Assembly (NCBI GenBank): GCA_040006915.1
Contig: JBDTWD010000005.1
Span: forward strand, 23,394 to 87,393
Reading direction: 5' to 3'
DNA length: 64,000 nucleotides
From: Candidatus Woesebacteria bacterium
Lineage (GTDB): Bacteria > Patescibacteriota > Microgenomatia > UBA1400 > UBA12028
Position numbers and translations under genes: made by a program. Position 1 is the stretch's first letter; the number at the start of each line of letters is the position of its first letter. Positions 3,039-60,640 of the stretch are shown here, one piece after another. A model generated the notes under the pieces. The model was not told the origin of the DNA and made no database searches. It was given only the letters and a program-made list of their open reading frames with translations.

Positions 3039-5306
3039 TCAAACATCAAGAGCAACCTCTCCTACTTTGGCTGGAGTTCCCGACACAGGTAAGCTAAACC
3101 AAAATGTGGTCCCGTGTTTTTCTTTTGGAACATCCACTTCGTCTTTTGTATGACTCTCGAACCAAATCTTTCCTTGCGATGATTCTACGATCGCTTTTAC
3201 TAAATACAGTCCTAAGCCAGTTCCTTCAGTTTCAATTTTTCTCACATTATCAGCACGGAAAAACCGTTGGAAAAGACGAGACTGCTGCGCTCTTGGTATA
3301 CCGTATCCGTTATCACTGACCTGCGAAATGATCTCTTCGCCTTTGCGGGAGATAAAGACAGTAATATCCCCATCTGCTGGTGTATATTTAATCGCGTTGG
3401 TTAACAAGTTCAGATATACCTGACCTATCAACTTCGGATCGATATTTACCAGTGGGAGATCTTCGTGCACGCTGATCACAAGGTTTTGCTTTTTTTCTTC
3501 CAGTTTTCCTTTCAAATCATTCACGATCTCTTTCACTAATTCTTTCAAATCCGTTGGCTTTGGATCAACGATAATTCTGCCTGATTCTATGCGCGAAATA
3601 TTTAAAAGTGAGTTAACTAATTGAATCATTCGTTCCGTTGATGCTGAAATATTTTTAACAAAATCATTTTGTTCGGTCTCAAGTTTTCCGGCATCTCCGG
3701 CCAGAAGCATTTCTGTAAACCATTTAATTGCTGACAATGGAGTACGCAATTGATGAGACGCAAGTGAAATGAATTCTGTCTTCATTCGATCAATTTCACG
3801 TTCTTTCGTCACATCATGGAAAATTGAAACGGCACCAATTATTTGACCTGCTTTGACGACCGGACTTGAAGTAATATGAATTACTTTTTTTACTCCTCCT
3901 GGACGAATCTCATAGGTTCCTTCGGCCTGTTTTCCGGTGCGCAGCACAATAGATCCAGATCTGTTTTCCGGCAAGATGACATTGCCGTCTATACCATAGT
4001 AGATGTAGGCATCAAACACTTTTTTCCCTACAACGTCCTGATCTTGCAGACCCAGAATTGCAATCAACGATTTGTTTACTTTCAAAATTTCATTTTCAGT
4101 ATTCACTGCCACCATCCCTTCTCCAATACTGGAGAGAATCGCTTCATCTTGGGCATTCGCGTCCAATAGCTCTGCTGTTTTCTCTTGTACTTTCTGTTCC
4201 AATTTCCCATTAAGGTCTTGGAGTGTATCTGCCATATAATCGAAGGCCATAGCCAGTCTTCCGATCTCGTCTCTAGAGGTAACCTTGGCTCGTCGGTTCA
4301 AATCACCTTGAGAAATCTGGATGGCAACGGCCGTAAGGTCATTGATCGGTTTGAGAAATTGAATGAAAAGAAATATAACTGTAGATCCAGAAAGTACCGT
4401 GACGGAAATAATCAATGCCGCAACCTTAAGCGCTGCTGCTACGGCTGGAGCGAAAGCCACCGAAGATGGTTGTTCAATTAACAACACCCACTTATTTCCT
4501 TCATAGGAGAGAAACCCTTTCTCAGTTACCGCAGAACTGAGAGTCTCTATGGTGCTATCAACACTGGTCGTTAGTTCAGAACTCTCTTTCCCTGCTAAAA
4601 CATTCTTCACATTCGAATGTTCTCGATTATTTACCACCAAGATCGCCTCTGGATCATCGTTATTAGCAATTTCTAACCCCTGATGATTATAGATATCTAC
4701 AATGGGACCATGAATGGTATTGAGCACTTCAGAAACTCTAGACCAGGAAAGGTCGGCAACAATCACTCCAATAATTGGTTTCTCTGGATCAAGAATACTT
4801 CGAACCGGGACAGCAAAGTGCATGGTCGGCGTATTTTTTGTGCCTTCTTTTGGTACCACGTCTGAATAATAGACAGAGCCGCTCAAAGCTACAGTAAAAG
4901 CGGCTGTATGTCCAACTTCATTCACAACTTGGGTTCCTATACGCTGAGGATCAGCTGAATACCGAATAACCCCATCAATTCCGATTAAATGAATGTCATC
5001 CCAAGGGCCACTCAGAGACCGCAATTCGCCCACTCGTTTCGAAAGGCTCGAAGAGCCTGAAGCCCCTGGAGTCGAAAGAAAAGTGGTGATCGTTTCATCA
5101 CCAGCCATTGATTGAATATCCAAATACCGTTCATACAGCACGCGATCAACTTTTTCCATAGTCTGACGAGCGAGCTGTTGCTGTTCAGTCTCAATGGACT
5201 GAACCAGGGAAGATTTTACGAGCGCATATGTCGCATATACGAGAAATGATCCTCCGACTAGAACTCCAATTAAAAGACCAAGAATGAATTTATAAATAAG
5301 TTTCAT
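3039..5306 (-). CDS. Sensor histidine kinase (TM – periplasmic Cache-like sensor – TM – HAMP – PAS – HisKA – HATPase)
   Basis: 755 aa. N-terminal TM helix, about 280-aa extracytoplasmic region, second TM. H-box ISLASHQLRTPLSAIKWFTEML. G-boxes DNGYGIP and GTGLGLYLVKAIV. Confidence 0.9.
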   Translation of the reverse strand: MKLIYKFILGLLIGVLVGGSFLVYATYALVKSSLVQSIETEQQQLARQTMEKVDRVLYERYLDIQSMAGDETITTFLSTPGASGSSSLSKRVGELRSLSGPWDDIHLIGIDGVIRYSADPQRIGTQVVNEVGHTAAFTVALSGSVYYSDVVPKEGTKNTPTMHFAVPVRSILDPEKPIIGVIVADLSWSRVSEVLNTIHGPIVDIYNHQGLEIANNDDPEAILVVNNREHSNVKNVLAGKESSELTTSVDSTIETLSSAVTEKGFLSYEGNKWVLLIEQPSSVAFAPAVAAALKVAALIISVTVLSGSTVIFLFIQFLKPINDLTAVAIQISQGDLNRRAKVTSRDEIGRLAMAFDYMADTLQDLNGKLEQKVQEKTAELLDANAQDEAILSSIGEGMVAVNTENEILKVNKSLIAILGLQDQDVVGKKVFDAYIYYGIDGNVILPENRSGSIVLRTGKQAEGTYEIRPGGVKKVIHITSSPVVKAGQIIGAVSIFHDVTKEREIDRMKTEFISLASHQLRTPLSAIKWFTEMLLAGDAGKLETEQNDFVKNISASTERMIQLVNSLLNISRIESGRIIVDPKPTDLKELVKEIVNDLKGKLEEKKQNLVISVHEDLPLVNIDPKLIGQVYLNLLTNAIKYTPADGDITVFISRKGEEIISQVSDNGYGIPRAQQSRLFQRFFRADNVRKIETEGTGLGLYLVKAIVESSQGKIWFESHTKDEVDVPKEKHGTTFWFSLPVSGTPAKVGEVALDV

Positions 5307-56785: not shown

Positions 56786-57379
56786 CTACTCTAAAGATCC
56801 TGTCTTGACCTTCCCTGCACGTTTAAATGAAGCGAAGATTACTCCACTGGGTGATGTTTTAGATTGAGTCAACGTAAAAGCAGCAGGGACCGTCCCGGTA
56901 TCAAACAATTTCTTCCCTGTTCCTAGAGTGATCGGGAATATTTTCAACCACAATTCATCGACCAAGTCATCCTTTAACAACGTTTGAATGAGCTTACCGC
57001 TCCCATGCACCTGCAAATCTGGACCGTTTGAGTTTTTTAGCTTTATTAATTCTTTTGTGTCTTTTACCACCACTGTGTTTTCCCAGGTTGGGTTTTTTAA
57101 GGTTTTTGAGACAACATATTTTGTAATTTTATTTACTTGTGGCCATCCCTCTGTATGCTCTGGCCAATATCCGGCAAAAATGTCATAGGTTATATGCCCA
57201 AGAAGCAGATCATATTTCCCTTTCATCTGCTTACCCATTTCTTTCCCCGCCATTTCATCAAAATAGGGTGCCGTCCATCCACCATATTTGAAGTTACCAC
57301 TTGTATCTTCTTTAGGTCCACCCGGGGCCTGCATGACGCCATCAAGGGTAATGAAAGAGAGGACAATGATTTTTCTCAT
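56786..57379 (-). CDS. Dihydrofolate reductase-family protein (RibD C-terminal-domain-like)
   Basis: IIVLSFITLDGVMQAPGGP N-terminus typical of YwjB/RibD_C-type reductases. 197 aa. Confidence 0.65.
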   Translation of the reverse strand: MRKIIVLSFITLDGVMQAPGGPKEDTSGNFKYGGWTAPYFDEMAGKEMGKQMKGKYDLLLGHITYDIFAGYWPEHTEGWPQVNKITKYVVSKTLKNPTWENTVVVKDTKELIKLKNSNGPDLQVHGSGKLIQTLLKDDLVDELWLKIFPITLGTGKKLFDTGTVPAAFTLTQSKTSPSGVIFASFKRAGKVKTGSLE

Positions 57380-57476
57380 AGACTATTATTCTATCAAATT
57401 GAATAAGTCAAGGAAAGTTATTTTTTATTGTAGCGAAGATAAATTATTTAAAAGGGTGCGATTTTAGATACTATAT

Positions 57477-57505
57477 TTGGTTCCGGACAATGTTTGGTAT
57501 ATACT
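57477..57505 (+). promoter_or_regulatory. Candidate sigma70-type promoter TTGGTT-N17-TATACT
   Basis: -35 at 57477-57482 and -10 at 57500-57505 with a 17-nt spacer, immediately upstream of the leader ORF and attenuator hairpins. Confidence 0.4.
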
Positions 57506-57513
57506 CAACTTGT

Positions 57514-57639
57514 ATGACCACCAATTTCTGTCACTTCCATTACTTTATTCAGATCCAAAGCGGGAGGTGTTCGCATGCAACATAGCAGAAGAAAAAGTCA
57601 GCAAGAAACGAACAACCTCCCACAGTCGGAGGTTTTTTT
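57514..57639 (+). promoter_or_regulatory. Putative leader-peptide transcription attenuator upstream of the M20 peptidase/epimerase pair
   Basis: Leader ORF 57514-57585 (MTTNFCHFHYFIQIQSGRCSHAT). Antiterminator stem GGGAGGTGTTCG (57562-57573) pairs with CGAACAACCTCCC (57609-57621). Terminator CCTCC(57616-57620)-CACAGTC-GGAGG(57628-57632) is followed by T7. The CCTCC segment is shared by both stems, so they are mutually exclusive. Confidence 0.5.
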
Positions 57640-57661
57640 ATATTAAAATTTGAAAGGAAAT

Positions 57662-58774
57662 ATGCTTACAACACAACAATTAAAAACACAGCTCGGTACT
57701 CTAGTCGGGTTTCAAACATTAACTGGGAATGTCAGTGAAAATGCCAAAGCTCTTGATTATGTCGAATCACTCCTCTCCCCTCAAGCCAAGGTTAAACGGA
57801 TTAAAAATAAAACAACAGAAATCCTCTTAGCGAGTACGAATGATTCGCTTACTCCTGAAATTGGATATATGGTTCACATGGATGTAGTTTCAGCCTCCCC
57901 CGCCCTCTTTTCTCTGAAAGAAAAGAACGGGAAGCTCTATGGTCGGGGTGTAAGTGATATGAAATTTTCCATCCCTTTGGGGGTTTCGATCCTAAATGAA
58001 CTGATCGAGACACACAGTCCAATCTCTTTTACACTTGCCATAACCACCGATGAAGAAGTCGGAGGATATGATGGGGGCGCGTATCTAGCAGAAACGATTG
58101 GGTGGAAACCAAAAGCCTTAATTGTCCCTGACGGAGGAGACAATATGCAGTTTGTGAACAAAGCCAAAGGAGTGTGCCAACTCATCGTGACTGCAAGTGG
58201 AAGATCCGCGCACGCATCCCGACCATGGGAAGGGAAAAATGCATTAGTTCCCATTGCCAAGCTCATAACAGAGCTTGAAAAACGGTATGGGGGAAATAAT
58301 CAGACCGAGGGTTGGAAAACTACTCTAAACTTTGGCAAGCTGATCGGAGGAATTTCTATCAATCAAGTATGTGATAAAGCAGTATTGAATATGGACTTTC
58401 GCTATCCGGAGACTGACTCAGTACAACGAATTACTGATGAAGTATCACAGCTCGTCAAAGCCATAGAGCCGACGATGAAGATCACTAAAGGTTTAACCGG
58501 ACTTCCAACATATACGGACGTTAATTTGCCCGTCGTGAAACGGTTCTTAAACTGTATTGGAGACAAAGTCGGAAAACCAATCATAGTAGCACCAACCTAT
58601 GGAGCGTCCGATGCCAGGCATTTTGCCAAAGATAATATTCCAGTATTGATGATCAAGCCAATGGGCGGTGATATTCATTGTGAGACTGAATGGCTGGATA
58701 TTCAATCGACATTGGATCTCTATCAAGGGTTGCGAACCTTCTTACAGTTATCCAAAGAAAAAGTGATGATATGA
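57662..58774 (+). CDS. M20-family metallopeptidase (ArgE/DapE/peptidase T-like)
   Basis: AAAGGAAA RBS. M20 metal-binding motifs HMDVV and TTDEEVGG, conserved Glu/His in the C-terminal half. Confidence 0.75.
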   Translation: MLTTQQLKTQLGTLVGFQTLTGNVSENAKALDYVESLLSPQAKVKRIKNKTTEILLASTNDSLTPEIGYMVHMDVVSASPALFSLKEKNGKLYGRGVSDMKFSIPLGVSILNELIETHSPISFTLAITTDEEVGGYDGGAYLAETIGWKPKALIVPDGGDNMQFVNKAKGVCQLIVTASGRSAHASRPWEGKNALVPIAKLITELEKRYGGNNQTEGWKTTLNFGKLIGGISINQVCDKAVLNMDFRYPETDSVQRITDEVSQLVKAIEPTMKITKGLTGLPTYTDVNLPVVKRFLNCIGDKVGKPIIVAPTYGASDARHFAKDNIPVLMIKPMGGDIHCETEWLDIQSTLDLYQGLRTFLQLSKEKVMI

Positions 58775-59880
58775 AATCACCAACCATAACGGCAGCCTCA
58801 CTTTTAGAGGTGGCATTACCCTTAAACAAACCATTCACGACTGGCTTCGGCACACTGTATGATCGAAACACCTTGTTGGTTAGGCTCGAGTCAGAGACGG
58901 GAAAAGTGGGATGGGGTGAAGCAGCCATACTTAAAGATCCCATTTACTTAGAAGAATGGCTCAATGGCAGCTACCAGTTCATCCAAGAATATCTTCTCCC
59001 AGTCGTTATGAAAGAGACGATAAGCTCTTTGGAGTTTTCGCAAAAGATTGCCGGACTGCGACGAAATAACATTTCAAAATTCGCTGTGGAAACGGCTCTA
59101 TGGTCTTTGGAAGCGAGCGAATCTCTAATTCCTGAATGGAAACTCCTGGGAGGAGAGCGAGCCAAAATCCAAACTGGTGCCAGTATCGGAATGCAGCCCA
59201 GTATTGAAAGAACACTGATAGAAGTAAAAGAAGCGCTGAACCAAGGATTAACGCGGATAAAATTGAAGATTGAACCTGGTTGGGATTTCGAACTTGTACG
59301 AGCCGTACGAGAGAAGTATCCGGATATCATGCTCATGGTCGACGCTAATTCTTCCTATACCCTAAAGGATATCGCAACGCTGCAGTCATTAGATGAGTTT
59401 AATCTCATCATGATGGAGCAACCGCTTGCATATGATGACATCATTGACCATGCAAAATTAGCGAAAGTACTCAAAACGCCGATTTGTTTGGACGAGAGTA
59501 TATGTTCATCCGAAGACGCGAGAAAAGCAATCGAGATTGGTGCATGTAAAATCATCAACGTAAAACCTGCCCGAGTAGGAAGTCTGTACGAAGTCCAACG
59601 TATAAATGAACTGGCGCGAGAAAATGGAATACAGCTTTGGTGTGGGGGAATGCTTGAATCAGACATAGGAAAGATTCCGAATCTCGCCTGTGCAAGTCTC
59701 TCGGAATTTTCTCTTCCTGCAGATATTTCTTCGTGGCAAACGTATTTTAGTAGTACCTGTACAGATTTAGATACATCCTATTCTCACGGAATTTTCACTT
59801 TAGATGATCAAACAGGACTTACCACGCATGTAGATGAGGAATGGATACGTCGATATACAGTGCGAAGAGTTGATCTGTAG
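58771..59880 (+). CDS. Enolase-superfamily enzyme, MLE/OSBS/dipeptide-epimerase subgroup
   Basis: KxK in IKLKIEP, metal ligands MVDANSSY / LDES / CGGMLESDIG. Capping N-terminal domain. The start ATGA overlaps the peptidase stop. Confidence 0.75.
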   Translation: MKSPTITAASLLEVALPLNKPFTTGFGTLYDRNTLLVRLESETGKVGWGEAAILKDPIYLEEWLNGSYQFIQEYLLPVVMKETISSLEFSQKIAGLRRNNISKFAVETALWSLEASESLIPEWKLLGGERAKIQTGASIGMQPSIERTLIEVKEALNQGLTRIKLKIEPGWDFELVRAVREKYPDIMLMVDANSSYTLKDIATLQSLDEFNLIMMEQPLAYDDIIDHAKLAKVLKTPICLDESICSSEDARKAIEIGACKIINVKPARVGSLYEVQRINELARENGIQLWCGGMLESDIGKIPNLACASLSEFSLPADISSWQTYFSSTCTDLDTSYSHGIFTLDDQTGLTTHVDEEWIRRYTVRRVDL

Positions 59881-59925
59881 ACGTAACAATTGCAAAATAA
59901 AGATTTGGCTGAAGTTCATGGGATG

Positions 59926-59996
59926 CTGCCGGACTTGGATTCGGACCAAGATAAACAGATTCAGAGTCTGTTGGCCTACCATTAGCCGATCCGGCA
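59926..59996 (-). tRNA. tRNA-Gln (anticodon CUG)
   Basis: Minus-strand fold: acceptor TGCCGGA/TCCGGCA (U1-A72), U8, D-arm GGCT-AATGGTA-GGCC, anticodon arm ACAGA-CTCTGAA-TCTGT (U33, CUG, A37), variable TTAT, T-arm CTTGG-TCCGAAT-CCAAG, discriminator G73. The T-loop has C55 instead of U. Confidence 0.65.
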
Positions 59997-60145: not shown

Positions 60146-60640
60146 ATGGTAAGTAAAGCAAAAAGAATGATTTTTGTCTCGGCTCTAGCAATCTCGATTA
60201 TTGGAGCGGGAATGTATGGAACTCGAAGTGTATTTGCACAAGATTCAACCGTGCAATCAACCATTGTGCAAAAGATTGCACAGAAATTTAGCTTGAAGAC
60301 TGAGGAAGTACAAGCAGTCTTTGATCAAGAACGGGCTGATCGTGAGAAGGAAATGGAGGCAAAATATGAGCAAAGGCTCACAGATGCTGTCTCCAAAGGA
60401 GAGCTCACCGAAGAAAAAAAACAACTCATCCTCACCAAACACAAAGAACTTATCTCTAACCGAACAACCAACATGGAGAAATTCAAAGCCATGACCGCAC
60501 AGGAACGGAAAGCGGCAATGCAAAAAGCCAAGACTGATCTTGAAACTTGGGCAAAAGAGAACGGGATCGATGTAAAGTACCTGATGGGAAGAATGGGAAA
60601 TAGAGGTGGATTTGGAAAACACTTTGGAGGGAATAAATAA
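60146..60640 (+). CDS. Secreted hypothetical protein (signal peptide; Lys/Glu-rich helical)
   Basis: TAAGGAGG RBS. Signal peptide MVSKAKRMIFVSALAISIIGAGMYGTRSVFAQD. Confidence 0.5.
   Translation: MVSKAKRMIFVSALAISIIGAGMYGTRSVFAQDSTVQSTIVQKIAQKFSLKTEEVQAVFDQERADREKEMEAKYEQRLTDAVSKGELTEEKKQLILTKHKELISNRTTNMEKFKAMTAQERKAAMQKAKTDLETWAKENGIDVKYLMGRMGNRGGFGKHFGGNK

What the first reader, a model, noticed from the sequence alone, without database searches (positions are those of the whole stretch)
57477..57662. Leader-peptide attenuator in front of an M20 peptidase and enolase-superfamily epimerase operon
A TTGGTT-N17-TATACT promoter is followed about 10 nt later by a 23-codon ORF rich in Phe/His/Tyr/Cys (FCHFHYF). 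Its stop codon lies in the loop of a 12-bp stem. The 3' arm of that stem (CCTCC) is also the 5' arm of a GGAGG-T7 intrinsic terminator, giving the textbook antiterminator/terminator alternative. A ribosome stalled early would allow read-through, and a ribosome completing the peptide would favour termination. The regulated genes are a translationally coupled M20 peptidase and a MLE/dipeptide-epimerase-type enzyme, plausibly for peptide or murein-peptide salvage.
Basis: partly seen in the sequence, partly recalled or inferred. Interest (0 to 1): 0.6.

Follow-up and report, generated by a model that had tools for sequence, protein, structure and literature searches.

The report
Leaderless leader-peptide attenuator in CPR bacterium
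A 23-codon mini-gene rich in His/Phe/Tyr/Cys codons, with a switchable terminator behind it, very probably turns on an M20 hydrolase and N-acyl-amino-acid racemase operon when those amino acids run short; the same device recurs in about 50 places in other Patescibacteria, a group where this classical mechanism seems not to have been described.

Summary
The window comes from a Candidatus Woesebacteria (Patescibacteria/CPR) MAG.

- **Anatomy.** A -10 box (TATACT, 57500-57505) lies 8 nt before an ATG with no Shine-Dalgarno, so the ORF is effectively leaderless. The ORF (57514-57585) encodes MTTNFCHFHYFIQIQSGRCSHAT. Region 2 (57562-57573) pairs with region 3 (57609-57621) as an antiterminator of about -20 kcal/mol. 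Region 3 is also the 5' arm of the terminator (57614-57634 plus T7, about -9 kcal/mol).
- **Conservation.** A scan of 80 related loci finds 40 elements with the same architecture, against 0-1 in reversed or shuffled controls.
- **Specificity.** Leaders before pheS carry 6-7 Phe codons. Leaders before the M20 gene and hisS mix His, Trp, Tyr and Phe codons.
- **Context.** Elsewhere the M20 gene sits next to tyrS, hisS, tRNA-Tyr, TrpR-like, GNAT and racemase genes.
- **Corrections.** The second enzyme is of the N-acylamino-acid racemase (NSAR/OSBS) type, not a dipeptide epimerase. Murein-peptide salvage is not supported. A 1:2 anti-antiterminator is not established.

No Rfam family or paper covers this element. 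I rate it a new member of a known kind.

The parts
57477..57482 (+). -35-like hexamer TTGGTT (weak, 3/6 match to TTGACA)
   Evidence: Read directly. It lies 17 nt upstream of TATACT. It falls below the threshold of the promoter scan. Only 20 of 44 related elements have a -35 match of at least 4/6.
57495..57505 (+). -10 region: TATACT at 57500-57505, or alternatively an extended -10 TGgTATATA at 57495-57503
   Evidence: In 42 of 44 related elements a TAnnnT box ends 6-9 nt (mode 7) before the leader ATG. In 24 of 44 it carries a TGn extension, where about 3 would be expected by chance.
57514..57585 (+). Leader ORF of 23 codons plus TAG (MTTNFCHFHYFIQIQSGRCSHAT); no Shine-Dalgarno; ATG 8 nt after the -10 box, so predicted leaderless
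   Evidence: Homologous ORFs are found in more than 40 loci. Covariance model R1 scores this element at 68 bits, but it was one of the 16 sequences the model was built from, so that score is not independent; the non-seed hits are the test.
57526..57546 (+). Regulatory codon cluster, codons 5-11: TTC TGT CAC TTC CAT TAC TTT = F C H F H Y F
   Evidence: Seven of seven consecutive codons are H/W/Y/F/C. The mean best 8-residue window is 5.3 in frame, against 2.0 and 2.3 in the other two frames. Both synonymous codons of His, Phe and Tyr are used across the family.
57532..57538 (+). Possible region 1 (CACTTCC), which can pair with GGAGGTG (57563-57569) as an anti-antiterminator; weakly supported
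   Evidence: Present in the minimum-free-energy fold and in the terminator-state fold. However, 24 of 100 shuffles pair as well, and it is absent in the nearest relative L081.
57562..57573 (+). Region 2: 5' arm of the antiterminator (GGGAGGTGTTCG), lying inside the leader ORF
   Evidence: The family-wide 2:3 duplex averages -12.9 kcal/mol against -6.1 for shuffled sequence (p = 8e-9) and -10.7 for a swapped region 3 (p = 7e-6). On the Infernal alignment 81% of cells are paired, against 27-69% when the partner is slid.
57609..57621 (+). Region 3: CGAAC-A-ACCTCCC, the 3' arm of the antiterminator, overlapping the 5' arm of the terminator
57614..57639 (+). Intrinsic terminator: AACCTCC (57614-57620), loop CACAGTC, GGAGGTT (57628-57634), T7 run at 57633-57639
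   Evidence: The hairpin alone is -8.8 kcal/mol. On alignment A6, 94% of terminator cells are paired and the covariation score is 0.316 against 0.199 for shuffles (0 of 500 reach it). That alignment was fitted to this structure, so it leans towards it.
57653..57659 (+). Shine-Dalgarno of the M20 gene (AAAGGAA), not sequestered by the terminator
   Evidence: The same GAAAGGAAA-ATG arrangement is seen in orthologous loci.
57662..58774 (+). M20 metallohydrolase, ArgE/DapE-like deacylase, 370 aa; first regulated gene
   Evidence: Pfam PF01546 plus PF07687. It falls below the cut-off of every NCBIfam equivalog. It is 100% identical to a Candidatus Woesebacteria MAG protein. His72, Asp99, Glu131, Glu132 and His339 are invariant in 33 homologues.
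58771..59880 (+). Enolase-superfamily enzyme of the NSAR/OSBS (N-acylamino-acid racemase) subfamily, 369 aa; overlaps the M20 stop codon in ATGA
   Evidence: TIGR01928 at 316 bits, cut-off 200.65. Best PDB hits are N-acylamino acid racemases, E = 1e-86 to 1e-75. The overlap was read.

Best explanation
This is a ribosome-mediated (leader-peptide) transcription attenuator of the trp/his/pheST type, built on a leaderless mini-ORF.

**Proposed mechanism.**
1. Transcription starts at or within about 3 nt of the ATG at 57514, and a ribosome initiates on the 5' AUG.
2. If charged tRNA-His, -Phe, -Tyr or -Cys is scarce, the ribosome stalls on codons 5-11 (57526-57546). Region 2 (57562-57573) stays free and pairs with region 3 (57609-57621) as soon as region 3 is made. 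The terminator cannot form, and RNA polymerase reads into the M20 hydrolase and NSAR-type racemase genes.
3. If these tRNAs are charged, the ribosome runs through region 2 to the TAG at 57583-57585 and covers region 2. Region 3 then pairs with region 4 (57628-57634), and transcription ends in the T7 run.

**Likely role of the regulated enzymes.** They most probably release free L-aromatic amino acids or His from N-acyl or D-derived precursors. This would suit an organism of a group that, as far as I know, generally lacks amino-acid biosynthesis.

**Shown versus inferred.** Shown by sequence and comparison: the anatomy, its conservation, the alternative pairings, the ribosome geometry, and the match between codon content and aaRS identity. 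Inferred: the transcription start, translation of the ORF, the starvation response, and the enzyme substrates.
For: 1. **Complete anatomy in the window**. The antiterminator is -20.2 kcal/mol and the terminator -8.8 to -9.7. With the ribosome at the stop codon only the terminator forms.
2. **Conservation.** A strict filter finds the element directly upstream of the M20 orthologue in 24 sequences (23 loci plus the window). Six more loci were seen by eye or by relaxed search, as was the nearest relative L081. There are 44 curated elements in all, and 40 pass the blind scan against 0-1 in controls. Covariance model R1, built from 16 elements, recovers 20 non-seed elements at E < 0.01.
3. **Signs of translation.** The ATG is fixed 6-9 nt after a TGn-TAnnnT box in 42 of 44 elements. 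ORFs with such a box are bimodal: 43 of 76 have at least 5 of 8 H/W/Y/F/C residues, against 11 of 83 ORFs without a box. The enrichment is frame-specific (5.3 versus 2.0 and 2.3), and the other frames usually contain stop codons. Synonymous codons alternate. Region 2 is read in different frames in different elements, which fits an RNA constraint there and an amino-acid constraint upstream.
4. **Alternative pairing.** The 2:3 duplex averages -12.9 kcal/mol against -6.1 for shuffled sequence (p = 8e-9) and -10.7 for a swapped region 3 (p = 7e-6). With the GGAGG/CCTCC core removed, the own flanks still pair better than swapped flanks (p = 0.002). Region 3 differs between clades (CCTCCC, CCTCCG, CACCCTTCG, CTCTCC, ACTCCCC) and region 2 changes to match. 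Tool counts give 81% of cells paired against 27-69% slid, with a covariation score reached by 12 of 500 shuffles.
5. **Geometry.** A ribosome at the stop codon covers 71% of region 2 on average (at least 50% in 34 of 44 elements) and 0% of region 3. A ribosome at the first cluster codon covers 0% of region 2.
6. **Amino-acid specificity.** Elements in front of pheS carry 6-7 Phe and no His or Trp codons. Elements in front of M20 or hisS-M20 carry mixed His, Trp, Tyr and Phe codons.
7. **Gene context.** In other loci the M20 gene adjoins TyrRS (10 loci), HisRS (8), TrpR-like (3), tRNA-Tyr (1), GNAT (8) and NSAR (8, plus the window).
8. **Terminator placement.** The terminator is not needed for an upstream gene, because the upstream gene is divergent.
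Against: - There are no transcript or translation data. The transcription start is inferred only from promoter geometry, and the -35 element is weak.
- A pause or anti-antiterminator hairpin (1:2), which in classical systems couples polymerase and ribosome, is not significant in the window (24 of 100 shuffles pair as well). Across the family it is only weakly supported (13 of 44 elements).
- Without any ribosome the antiterminator is far more stable than the terminator. The 'no translation' state is therefore unclear: the whole-transcript terminator state is -25.5 kcal/mol, against -22.0 when region 4 is kept unpaired, which gives the antiterminator fold.
- The sensed set is heterogeneous (His, Phe, Tyr, Cys here; Trp in most relatives), unlike the single-residue runs of textbook leaders.
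- In clade C the motif N-N-W-H-H is also conserved at the nucleotide level, so a sequence-specific peptide or RNA role is not excluded.
- Within-clade covariation is not significant.
- The substrate of the M20 enzyme is unknown, so the physiological loop is inferred.
Confidence: 0.8

Rival explanations
1. The leader ORF is translated, but it acts as a sequence-specific arrest peptide of the TnaC or Erm-leader type. The nascent aromatic/His motif would stall the ribosome in response to a small molecule, for example a free amino acid or an N-acyl amino acid, rather than in response to uncharged tRNA.
For: In clade C the motif N-(N/S/T)-W-H-H-x-H is nearly invariant in 13 leaders, and codons AAT (position 9), TGG and CAT (position 13) are invariant even at the nucleotide level. 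Trp is present in 21 of 23 leaders placed directly before the M20 gene, although it is a rare residue.
Against: Across clades the order and identity of the residues are scrambled: FCHFHYF, HHHAWYF, CYALIWF, NWHYHY, GYHYFFF. The same scaffold carries plain Phe runs in front of pheS, which is the signature of hungry-codon sensing. The C-terminal part of the peptide is dictated by RNA region 2 and is read in different frames in different elements.
Confidence: 0.1
2. The switch is RNA-only or protein-mediated. It could be a riboswitch, a T-box-like tRNA sensor, or the target of an RNA-binding protein such as a TRAP- or PyrR-type factor. On this view the short ORF is fortuitous.
For: The terminator/antiterminator pair alone would fit any such mechanism. 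TrpR-like genes sit next to the M20 gene in three loci that lack a leader.
Against: No Rfam family matches on the + strand at E <= 10, and no T-box was found in 141 kb that includes several aaRS genes. The segment upstream of region 2 shows no conserved structure; it shows a conserved ATG, an open frame and frame-specific amino-acid content. The element is only about 125 nt long, too short for a T-box.
Confidence: 0.05
3. The hairpin plus T-run is a constitutive terminator or insulator, for example a remnant or a shield against read-through, and the M20 gene is expressed from elsewhere. The apparent attenuator would then be coincidental.
For: In L082/L083 (67% identical M20) a similar terminator directly follows a polA-like gene and precedes the M20 gene with no leader.
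Against: In the window and in many other loci the upstream gene is divergent, so there is nothing to terminate. There is no room for a promoter between the terminator and the M20 ATG (22 nt). Region 2, which competes with the terminator, is conserved and changes to match region 3 between clades.
Confidence: 0.03
4. The relevant small ORF is instead the one led by a Shine-Dalgarno sequence at 57575-57646 (MQHSRRKSQQETNNLPQSEVFLY). GGGAGG at 57562-57567 would serve as its ribosome-binding site, and its translation through the terminator would control read-through.
For: A perfect SD (GGGAGG) lies 7 nt before the ATG at 57575, and the ORF spans the terminator.
Against: An ATG lies 4-10 nt after the SD-like core in only 6 of 44 elements. 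The nearest relative L081 has no such ATG. GGGAGG is explained by its pairing with CCTCCC.
Confidence: 0.02

Closest known systems
Classical leader-peptide transcription attenuators of Proteobacteria: trpL, hisL, pheL and especially pheM-pheST (own knowledge of these systems)
   Same: A short ORF with a cluster of regulatory codons, mutually exclusive antiterminator and terminator hairpins that share one strand, and an intrinsic terminator just before the first structural gene. The ribosome position decides the outcome. As at pheST, related copies here precede pheS and carry Phe runs.
   Different: No Shine-Dalgarno; the ORF is predicted to be leaderless. The ORF runs through region 2 instead of stopping before it. 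The codon set is mixed (His, Phe, Tyr, Cys and, in most relatives, Trp). The 1:2 pause hairpin is not established. The regulated genes are a hydrolase and a racemase, not a biosynthetic operon. There is no sequence match to any Rfam leader family.
Leaderless or leader-peptide attenuators of Actinobacteria: the mycobacterial polycysteine leaderless sORFs (10.1101/834739) and the predicted attenuators before trp, ilvB, trpS and leuS (PMC1262725)
   Same: A sensory mini-ORF that begins at the 5' end of the mRNA. Several loci share the same sensed amino acids, forming a 'ribulon'. Attenuators placed in front of aaRS genes have precedent at Streptomyces trpS and leuS.
   Different: [quoted passage not shown] Here a canonical intrinsic terminator is the output and the M20 Shine-Dalgarno is free. 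The phylum and the amino-acid set are also different.
T-box riboswitches (the usual aaRS regulators in Firmicutes)
   Same: They answer the same physiological question, namely tRNA charging. They give the same output, terminator versus antiterminator, in front of tyrS, hisS, pheS and amino-acid supply genes.
   Different: They sense uncharged tRNA directly through RNA, need 200 nt or more with Stem I and the T-box sequence, and have no ORF. No T-box match was found here.
[quoted passage not shown]
   Same: The window pairs an M20 hydrolase with an NSAR/OSBS-family gene in one operon. In clade C loci a GNAT gene follows the M20 gene.
   Different: No GNAT gene was found in the window. The M20 protein is ArgE/DapE-like and its orthology to the Geobacillus desuccinylase was not tested. 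Most relatives have the M20 gene without the racemase. As far as I know, a leader-peptide attenuator has not been reported for that pathway.

Membership tests
Ribosome-mediated (leader-peptide) transcription attenuator | Short ORF at the 5' end of the transcript, upstream of the structural genes | tested here: met
   The ORF at 57514-57585 lies 8 nt after the -10 box. It is conserved in more than 40 related elements, with the ATG 6-9 nt after the box in 42 of 44.
Ribosome-mediated (leader-peptide) transcription attenuator | Cluster of codons for the sensed amino acid(s) inside the ORF | tested here: met
   F-C-H-F-H-Y-F occupies codons 5-11. The enrichment is frame-specific across the family. 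The scan finds 40 elements against 0-1 in controls.
Ribosome-mediated (leader-peptide) transcription attenuator | Intrinsic terminator between the leader ORF and the first structural gene | tested here: met
   The stem at 57614-57634 plus T7 ends 22 nt before the M20 ATG. On alignment A6, 94% of terminator cells are paired and 0 of 500 shuffles reach the covariation score.
Ribosome-mediated (leader-peptide) transcription attenuator | Antiterminator that shares a strand with the terminator (mutually exclusive folds) | tested here: met
   A 12-bp 2:3 helix of -20 kcal/mol. Family-wide, own pairing is stronger than shuffled (p = 8e-9), swapped (p = 7e-6) and flank-only swapped (p = 0.002). 81% of cells are paired against 27-69% slid.
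Ribosome-mediated (leader-peptide) transcription attenuator | Geometry: a stalled ribosome leaves region 2 free, and a terminating ribosome masks region 2 but not region 3 | tested here: met
   With a 30-nt footprint model, a ribosome at the stop codon covers 54% of region 2 in the window and 71% on average, and 0% of region 3. A ribosome at the first cluster codon covers 0% of region 2.
Ribosome-mediated (leader-peptide) transcription attenuator | Region 1:2 pause / anti-antiterminator hairpin | tested here: inconclusive
   CACTTCC/GGAGGTG can pair, but 24 of 100 shuffles pair as well. Across the family the mean is -11.2 against -9.3 kcal/mol (p = 6e-4), and only 13 of 44 elements are individually significant.
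Ribosome-mediated (leader-peptide) transcription attenuator | Regulated genes are functionally tied to the sensed amino acids | tested here: inconclusive
   The evidence is indirect. pheS leaders are Phe-only. The M20 gene neighbours TyrRS, HisRS, tRNA-Tyr and TrpR-like genes. The enzyme substrates are unknown.
Ribosome-mediated (leader-peptide) transcription attenuator | Read-through rises when the cognate amino acid is scarce, and this depends on translation of the leader | not testable with these tools
   This needs Term-seq or 5'-RACE, or a reporter or coupled in vitro system.
Curated Rfam cis-regulatory families (T-box, His/Trp/Thr/Leu leaders, riboswitches) | Match to the family covariance model | tested here: not met
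   There is no + strand match at E <= 10 in 56800-58200. Nothing but tRNAs reaches the gathering score in the window plus 9 loci, 141 kb in all.
NSAR/OSBS subfamily of the enolase superfamily (gene 58771-59880) | Sequence membership in the subfamily | tested here: met
   TIGR01928 at 316 bits, cut-off 200.65. The best solved relatives are N-acylamino acid racemases at E = 1e-86, against 5e-30 for L-Ala-D/L-Glu epimerase.
NSAR/OSBS subfamily of the enolase superfamily (gene 58771-59880) | Racemase rather than OSBS as the biological activity (no menaquinone context; racemase activity on N-succinyl amino acids) | not tested
   Only the operon partner (M20) argues for NSAR. The rest of the genome and the enzyme activity were not examined.
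[quoted passage not shown] | All three enzymes encoded together | tested here: not met
   M20 and NSAR are present. No GNAT was found in the 64-kb window (tblastn), and orf164 is not a GNAT. A GNAT follows the M20 gene only in clade C loci.
Leaderless sensory sORFs (mycobacterial Cys 'ribulon' type) | mRNA begins with the start codon of the sORF | tested here: inconclusive
   The promoter geometry fits: the -10 box ends 6-9 nt before the ATG and is enriched in TGn. No 5'-end data are available.

The most novel reading that the evidence does not exclude
Patescibacteria (CPR) may use a phylum-wide 'ribulon' of leaderless leader-peptide attenuators in place of T-boxes. One scaffold (TGn-TAnnnT, a 5' AUG, a codon cluster, then a GGGAGG/CCTCCC switch) carries Phe runs before pheST. 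It carries mixed His/Trp/Tyr/Phe clusters before a conserved, uncharacterised M20 deacylase, hisS, tyrS, tRNA-Tyr and enzymes that process D- or N-acyl amino acids. This would mark the M20 family as an aromatic/His amino-acid salvage enzyme that is switched on by ribosome stalling in organisms of a group that, as far as I know, generally lacks amino-acid biosynthesis.
Probability: 0.5. Interest if true: 0.72.

Novelty: new member of a known kind. Interest (0 to 1): 0.6.

Why it matters
- **A testable regulatory mechanism in CPR bacteria.** Gene regulation in CPR/Patescibacteria is, to my knowledge, little studied, because these organisms are largely uncultured. Four full-text searches found no paper on attenuation, leader peptides, T-boxes or riboswitches in this group. 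This element gives a concrete mechanism, tRNA-charging control by ribosome stalling, that can be checked in metatranscriptomes or in heterologous and in vitro systems.
- **A functional label for an unannotated enzyme.** The codon content of the leaders attaches a functional hint to a widespread M20 hydrolase. His, Trp, Tyr and Phe point to supply of aromatic amino acids and His, possibly from N-acyl or D-forms through NSAR, GNAT or racemase partners.
- **aaRS regulation.** It shows how aaRS genes (pheS, hisS, tyrS) may be regulated in a lineage where no T-box was seen in the loci examined.
- **Annotation.** These mini-ORFs are below the size that gene callers usually report, so they are probably unannotated; I did not check any record's annotation.

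Tried and rejected
1. **Rfam.** A permissive search of 56800-58200 gave only two weak minus-strand terminator look-alikes, STnc370 and rimP, both far below their gathering scores. A gathering search of the window plus 9 loci gave only tRNAs.
2. **SD-led ORF at 57575-57646.** It is not conserved: 6 of 44 elements have a comparable ATG.
3. **MAFFT/RNAalifold on the antiterminator hairpins of clade A.** The alignment cannot register the variable inner helix. Only 4 invariant outer pairs were predicted, with no covariation. I used per-sequence duplex tests with shuffled and swapped controls instead.
4. **Within-clade covariation in clade C.** 86% of cells are paired against 36-52% slid, but the covariation score is not significant (80 of 500 shuffles reach it).
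5. **trp-like 1:2 hairpin.** Not significant in the window.
6. **orf164 (60146-60640) as the missing GNAT.** It has no Pfam or NCBIfam hit and no similarity to the clade C GNAT.
7. **Companion genes in the window.** tblastn for HisRS, TyrRS, PheS, GNAT, TrpR-like, amidoligase-like, HAD-like hydrolase, LMW-phosphatase-like, Asp/Glu-racemase-like and aminotransferase genes found nothing.
8. **Metagenome scan for closer relatives.** It returned only one 5'-truncated locus.
9. **Context of deltaproteobacterial M20 homologues (L076).** Uninformative.
10. **Literature.** Searches on CPR/Patescibacteria combined with attenuation, leader peptide, T-box or riboswitch returned nothing.
Full report
**What is in the window**

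- **Promoter.** TTGGTT (57477-57482), a 17-nt spacer, then TATACT (57500-57505). An alternative extended -10, TGgTATATA, lies at 57495-57503.
- **Leader ORF.** ATG at 57514 opens a 23-codon ORF, MTTNFCHFHYFIQIQSGRCSHAT, with TAG at 57583-57585.
- **Antiterminator.** GGGAGGTGTTCG (57562-57573) is complementary to CGAAC-A-ACCTCCC (57609-57621).
- **Terminator.** AACCTCC (57614-57620) pairs with GGAGGTT (57628-57634), followed by T7 (57633-57639).
- **First gene.** The Shine-Dalgarno AAAGGAA and the M20 ATG at 57662 follow.

The consensus scan lists the terminator but not the promoter, whose -35 matches in only 3 of 6 positions. The region folds better than shuffles (z = -2.41). There is no Shine-Dalgarno in front of the leader ATG; it sits 8 nt after the -10 hexamer, where transcription should start.

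**The genes and the organism**

- The first gene (57662-58774) is an M20 metallohydrolase with the M20 dimerisation domain. It is ArgE/DapE-like but falls below the cut-off of every NCBIfam equivalog.
- It is 100% identical to a protein of a Candidatus Woesebacteria MAG, and all of its close homologues that carry a reliable organism label come from Patescibacteria.
- The second gene (58771-59880) overlaps the first in ATGA. It belongs to the NSAR/OSBS subfamily of the enolase superfamily: TIGR01928 at 316 bits against a cut-off of 200.65.
- Its best solved relatives are N-acylamino acid racemases at E = 1e-86, against 5e-30 for L-Ala-D/L-Glu epimerase. The 'dipeptide epimerase / murein peptide' idea is therefore not supported.
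[quoted passage not shown] The window has two of the three; no GNAT was found.
- The upstream gene (RibD_C domain, 56786-57379) is divergent. The terminator at 57614-57639 therefore terminates nothing except transcripts that start at the leader promoter.

**Folding with ribosome masks (ViennaRNA)**

- The transcript truncated before region 4 forms the 12-bp 2:3 antiterminator (-21.5 kcal/mol).
- With a ribosome placed on the aromatic/His codons the antiterminator still forms (-20.2) and wins over the terminator in the full-length RNA.
- With a ribosome at the stop codon only the terminator remains (-9.7).
- A 1:2 pairing (CACTTCC 57532-57538 with GGAGGTG 57563-57569) is possible. It makes the terminator state slightly more stable overall (-25.5 against -22.0). 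It is no better than 24 of 100 shuffles, and it is absent in the nearest relative.

**Comparative evidence**

I fetched 80 loci encoding relatives of the M20 protein.
- In 24 sequences (23 loci plus the window) a strict filter finds the same device directly upstream of the M20 gene. The filter requires a TAnnnT box, an ATG 5-11 nt later, an ORF of 13-28 codons with 4-7 of 8 consecutive residues in H/W/Y/F/C, a stop codon 20-47 nt before a terminator hairpin, and a terminator ending from 45 nt before the M20 ATG to 3 nt past its first base; L047, where a tRNA-Tyr gene intervenes at 129 nt, is the exception.
- Six more loci were found by eye or by relaxed search.
- The nearest relative, L081 (67% identical M20), has MQAHSWYPHFFVYIHSGRCSFVA with an identical region 2.
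- A blind scan of all loci on both strands finds 40 elements with at least 5 of 8 such residues, against 1, 1 and 0 in reversed or shuffled sequence.
- A covariance model built from 16 elements recovers 20 further ones at E < 0.01. It finds exactly one hit in the window, the element itself.

**Evidence that the ORF is read**

- The ATG lies 6-9 nt (mode 7) after the -10 hexamer in 42 of 44 elements. The hexamer carries a TGn extension in 24 of 44.
- ORFs that end before terminators and have such a box are bimodal in aromatic/His content: 43 of 76 have at least 5 of 8. Those without a box are not: 11 of 83.
- The enrichment is frame-specific (5.3 against 2.0 and 2.3), and the other frames mostly contain stop codons.
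- Both synonymous codons of His, Phe, Tyr, Cys and Asn are used. In 13 clade C leaders CAC and CAT alternate at two of the three conserved His positions.
- The G-rich region 2 is read in different frames in different elements (GR, RGG, KGG, KEV). It is conserved as RNA, whereas the upstream part is conserved as amino-acid content.

**Evidence for the switch**

- The best duplex between region 3 and the segment after the codon cluster averages -12.9 kcal/mol. The average is -6.1 after shuffling that segment (p = 8e-9; at most 1 of 50 shuffles reach it in 34 of 44 elements). It is -10.7 with region 3 taken from other elements (p = 7e-6).
- With the GGAGG/CCTCC core removed, the flanking helix still prefers its own partner (p = 0.002).
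- Between clades region 3 changes (CCTCCC, CCTCCG, CACCCTTCG, CTCTCC, ACTCCCC, CCCGC) and region 2 follows.
- On the Infernal alignment, which was fitted to the terminator and not to the antiterminator, the outer antiterminator helix is paired in 81% of cells, against 27-69% for slid partners. Its covariation score is reached by 12 of 500 shuffles.
- The terminator itself is paired in 94% of cells, and no shuffle reaches its covariation score; that alignment was fitted to the terminator, so this figure leans towards it.
- Within clade C alone there is too little variation for significance.
- Geometry is conserved. A ribosome at the stop codon covers on average 71% of region 2 and none of region 3. 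A ribosome at the first regulatory codon covers none of region 2.

**What is sensed**

- Elements in front of pheS (L028, L045) encode MFTNKYFTGFFFNFQK and MLSNKFFTGFFFFFQE. They have 6-7 Phe and no His or Trp, which parallels the E. coli pheM-pheST case.
- Elements in front of the M20 gene, or of hisS-M20 operons, mix His (1-5), Trp (at least 1 in 21 of 23 M20-proximal leaders), Tyr and Phe. The window's copy is one of the two without Trp; it has two Cys codons instead.
- In L040 a C-H-H-Y-Y-F-H leader precedes hisS-M20-tyrS.
- In L047 a G-Y-H-Y-F-F-F leader precedes tRNA-Tyr, M20 and tyrS.
- Counting same-strand neighbours within about 1.4 kb, the M20 gene adjoins TyrRS in 10 loci, HisRS in 8, GNAT in 8, amidoligase-like genes in 8, a TrpR-like gene in 3, and NSAR in 8 loci plus the window.

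This is why I favour hungry-codon sensing of aromatic and His tRNA charging. It is also why I read the M20 enzyme as a supplier of these amino acids. Its substrate is not known, and this step is inference.

**Rivals**

- **Ligand-dependent arrest peptide.** This is the main alternative, because clade C conserves N-N-W-H-H even at the nucleotide level. Against it, the residues are scrambled between clades and the pheS copies carry plain Phe runs.
- **RNA-only or protein-mediated switch.** This is unlikely. There is no Rfam match, the element is about 125 nt, and the conserved features upstream of region 2 are an ATG, an open frame and amino-acid content.
- **Constitutive terminator.** This does not explain region 2.
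- **SD-led ORF at 57575-57646.** It is not conserved.

**Novelty and verdict**

The mechanism is the classical one. Leaderless sensory ORFs are known in mycobacteria and corynebacteria, and attenuators before aaRS genes are known or predicted in E. coli and Streptomyces.

Three things are new.
- The host lineage is CPR/Patescibacteria, with no literature or Rfam record found.
- The sensor is a mixed aromatic/His codon cluster.
- The regulated target is a conserved, uncharacterised M20 hydrolase, accompanied here by an NSAR-type racemase.

I rate it a new member of a known kind, with interest of about 0.6. Confidence that it is a translation-coupled attenuator responding to aromatic/His supply is about 0.8. 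No transcript or protein data exist for any copy.

Noticed in passing
L028:772-883 and L045:214-322: Leaderless Phe-run leaders (MFTNKYFTGFFFNFQK and MLSNKFFTGFFFFFQE) with an antiterminator/terminator lie directly upstream of pheS, followed by a 663-677 aa ORF that is probably pheT. This is a CPR counterpart of the E. coli pheM-pheST attenuator.
   Followed up: partly
L047:3776-3958: The leader MINKAFGYHYFFF and its terminator are followed by a tRNA-Tyr(GTA) gene (3875-3958), then M20, TyrRS and HisRS. Here the attenuator appears to control a tRNA gene as well.
   Followed up: partly
L029:2631, L030:2531, L040:2556, L041:2656, L050:2560: In Collierbacteria-type loci the aromatic/His leader sits in front of hisS, with the M20 gene as the next gene. 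L040 has hisS-M20-tyrS behind the leader MLSLCHHYYFHLP.
   Followed up: partly
L038, L042, L043 (upstream of the M20 gene): Where the M20 gene has no leader, a TrpR-like (PF01371) gene immediately precedes it. This may be a protein-based replacement for the attenuator.
   Followed up: no
L029:6107-6221(-), L038:5092-5214, L041:5086-5204, L042:1233-1354: A 295-312 aa protein without a Pfam match lies downstream of the M20 gene. A related clade C protein weakly matches Amidoligase_2. It has its own His/Tyr/Phe leader, for example MNIQIKKHHHYNFSLLERELF.
   Followed up: partly
L005:7705-7831(-), L026:7478-7592(-), L007:6594-6716: M20 paralogues (25-29% identity) and a HAD hydrolase also carry leaders of this type: MIAKSIFASVYYASYTKAEVAMYC, MFVRNYWHHFTHFVPAGMPLG and MQTNNMHHHFWFNRPGRCLLVMP.
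   Followed up: no
L018:3160-3265 and L010:3464-3584: Here the leader precedes a two-gene unit. In L018 it is an ORF that looks like an Asp/Glu-racemase family member by eye (not scanned against Pfam) followed by M20. In L010 it is an ORF that looks like a low-molecular-weight phosphatase by eye, followed by M20. L018 would be another racemase partner for the M20 enzyme.
   Followed up: no
L059:~2606, L065:~2666, L072:~2792; L057:~2500, L073:~2852: Other leaderless mini-ORFs with terminators occur in Saccharimonadales-type loci. Examples are MTKQTITASYFWLIAVLFMKRDRFVFVQN, apparently in two tandem copies, and the Leu/Ile-rich MSNYRVNNQLFLLIIILSRGVPAEVI. They lie upstream of ORFs that I took by eye for ATP-grasp- or amidoligase-like genes (no family search run). 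They may be further attenuator classes.
   Followed up: no
L048:5151, L049:5119, L052:6755: Phe-run leaders (for example MTSVVNFFSFFFRLPQGRS) precede a small ORF of 53-58 aa of unknown function.
   Followed up: no
window 59925-59996 (- strand): A tRNA-Gln(CTG) gene lies convergent with the M20-racemase operon. It fills most of the 266-nt gap before orf164 (60146-60640). That ORF has its own SD (AAGGAGG), a hydrophobic N-terminus and no family match.
   Followed up: partly
L015:3895-4003: The T-run of the terminator abuts the M20 ATG. The 3' arm of the terminator (GGAGG) therefore doubles as the Shine-Dalgarno of the M20 gene, which could combine transcriptional and translational control.
   Followed up: no
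L082/L083:2440-2500: In the lineage of P0003 (67% identical M20) the leader is absent. A polA-like gene ends about 50 nt upstream, and only a terminator (AACCTCCatctaGGAGGTTTTTTT) precedes the M20 gene.
   Followed up: no
Titles of L002-L006, L009, L011-L015 and others: Many TPA_asm MAGs titled 'uncultured Pseudomonadales' or 'Gammaproteobacteria' carry M20 orthologues 50-62% identical to the Woesebacteria protein, in Patescibacteria-type gene context. These organism labels look wrong.
   Followed up: no
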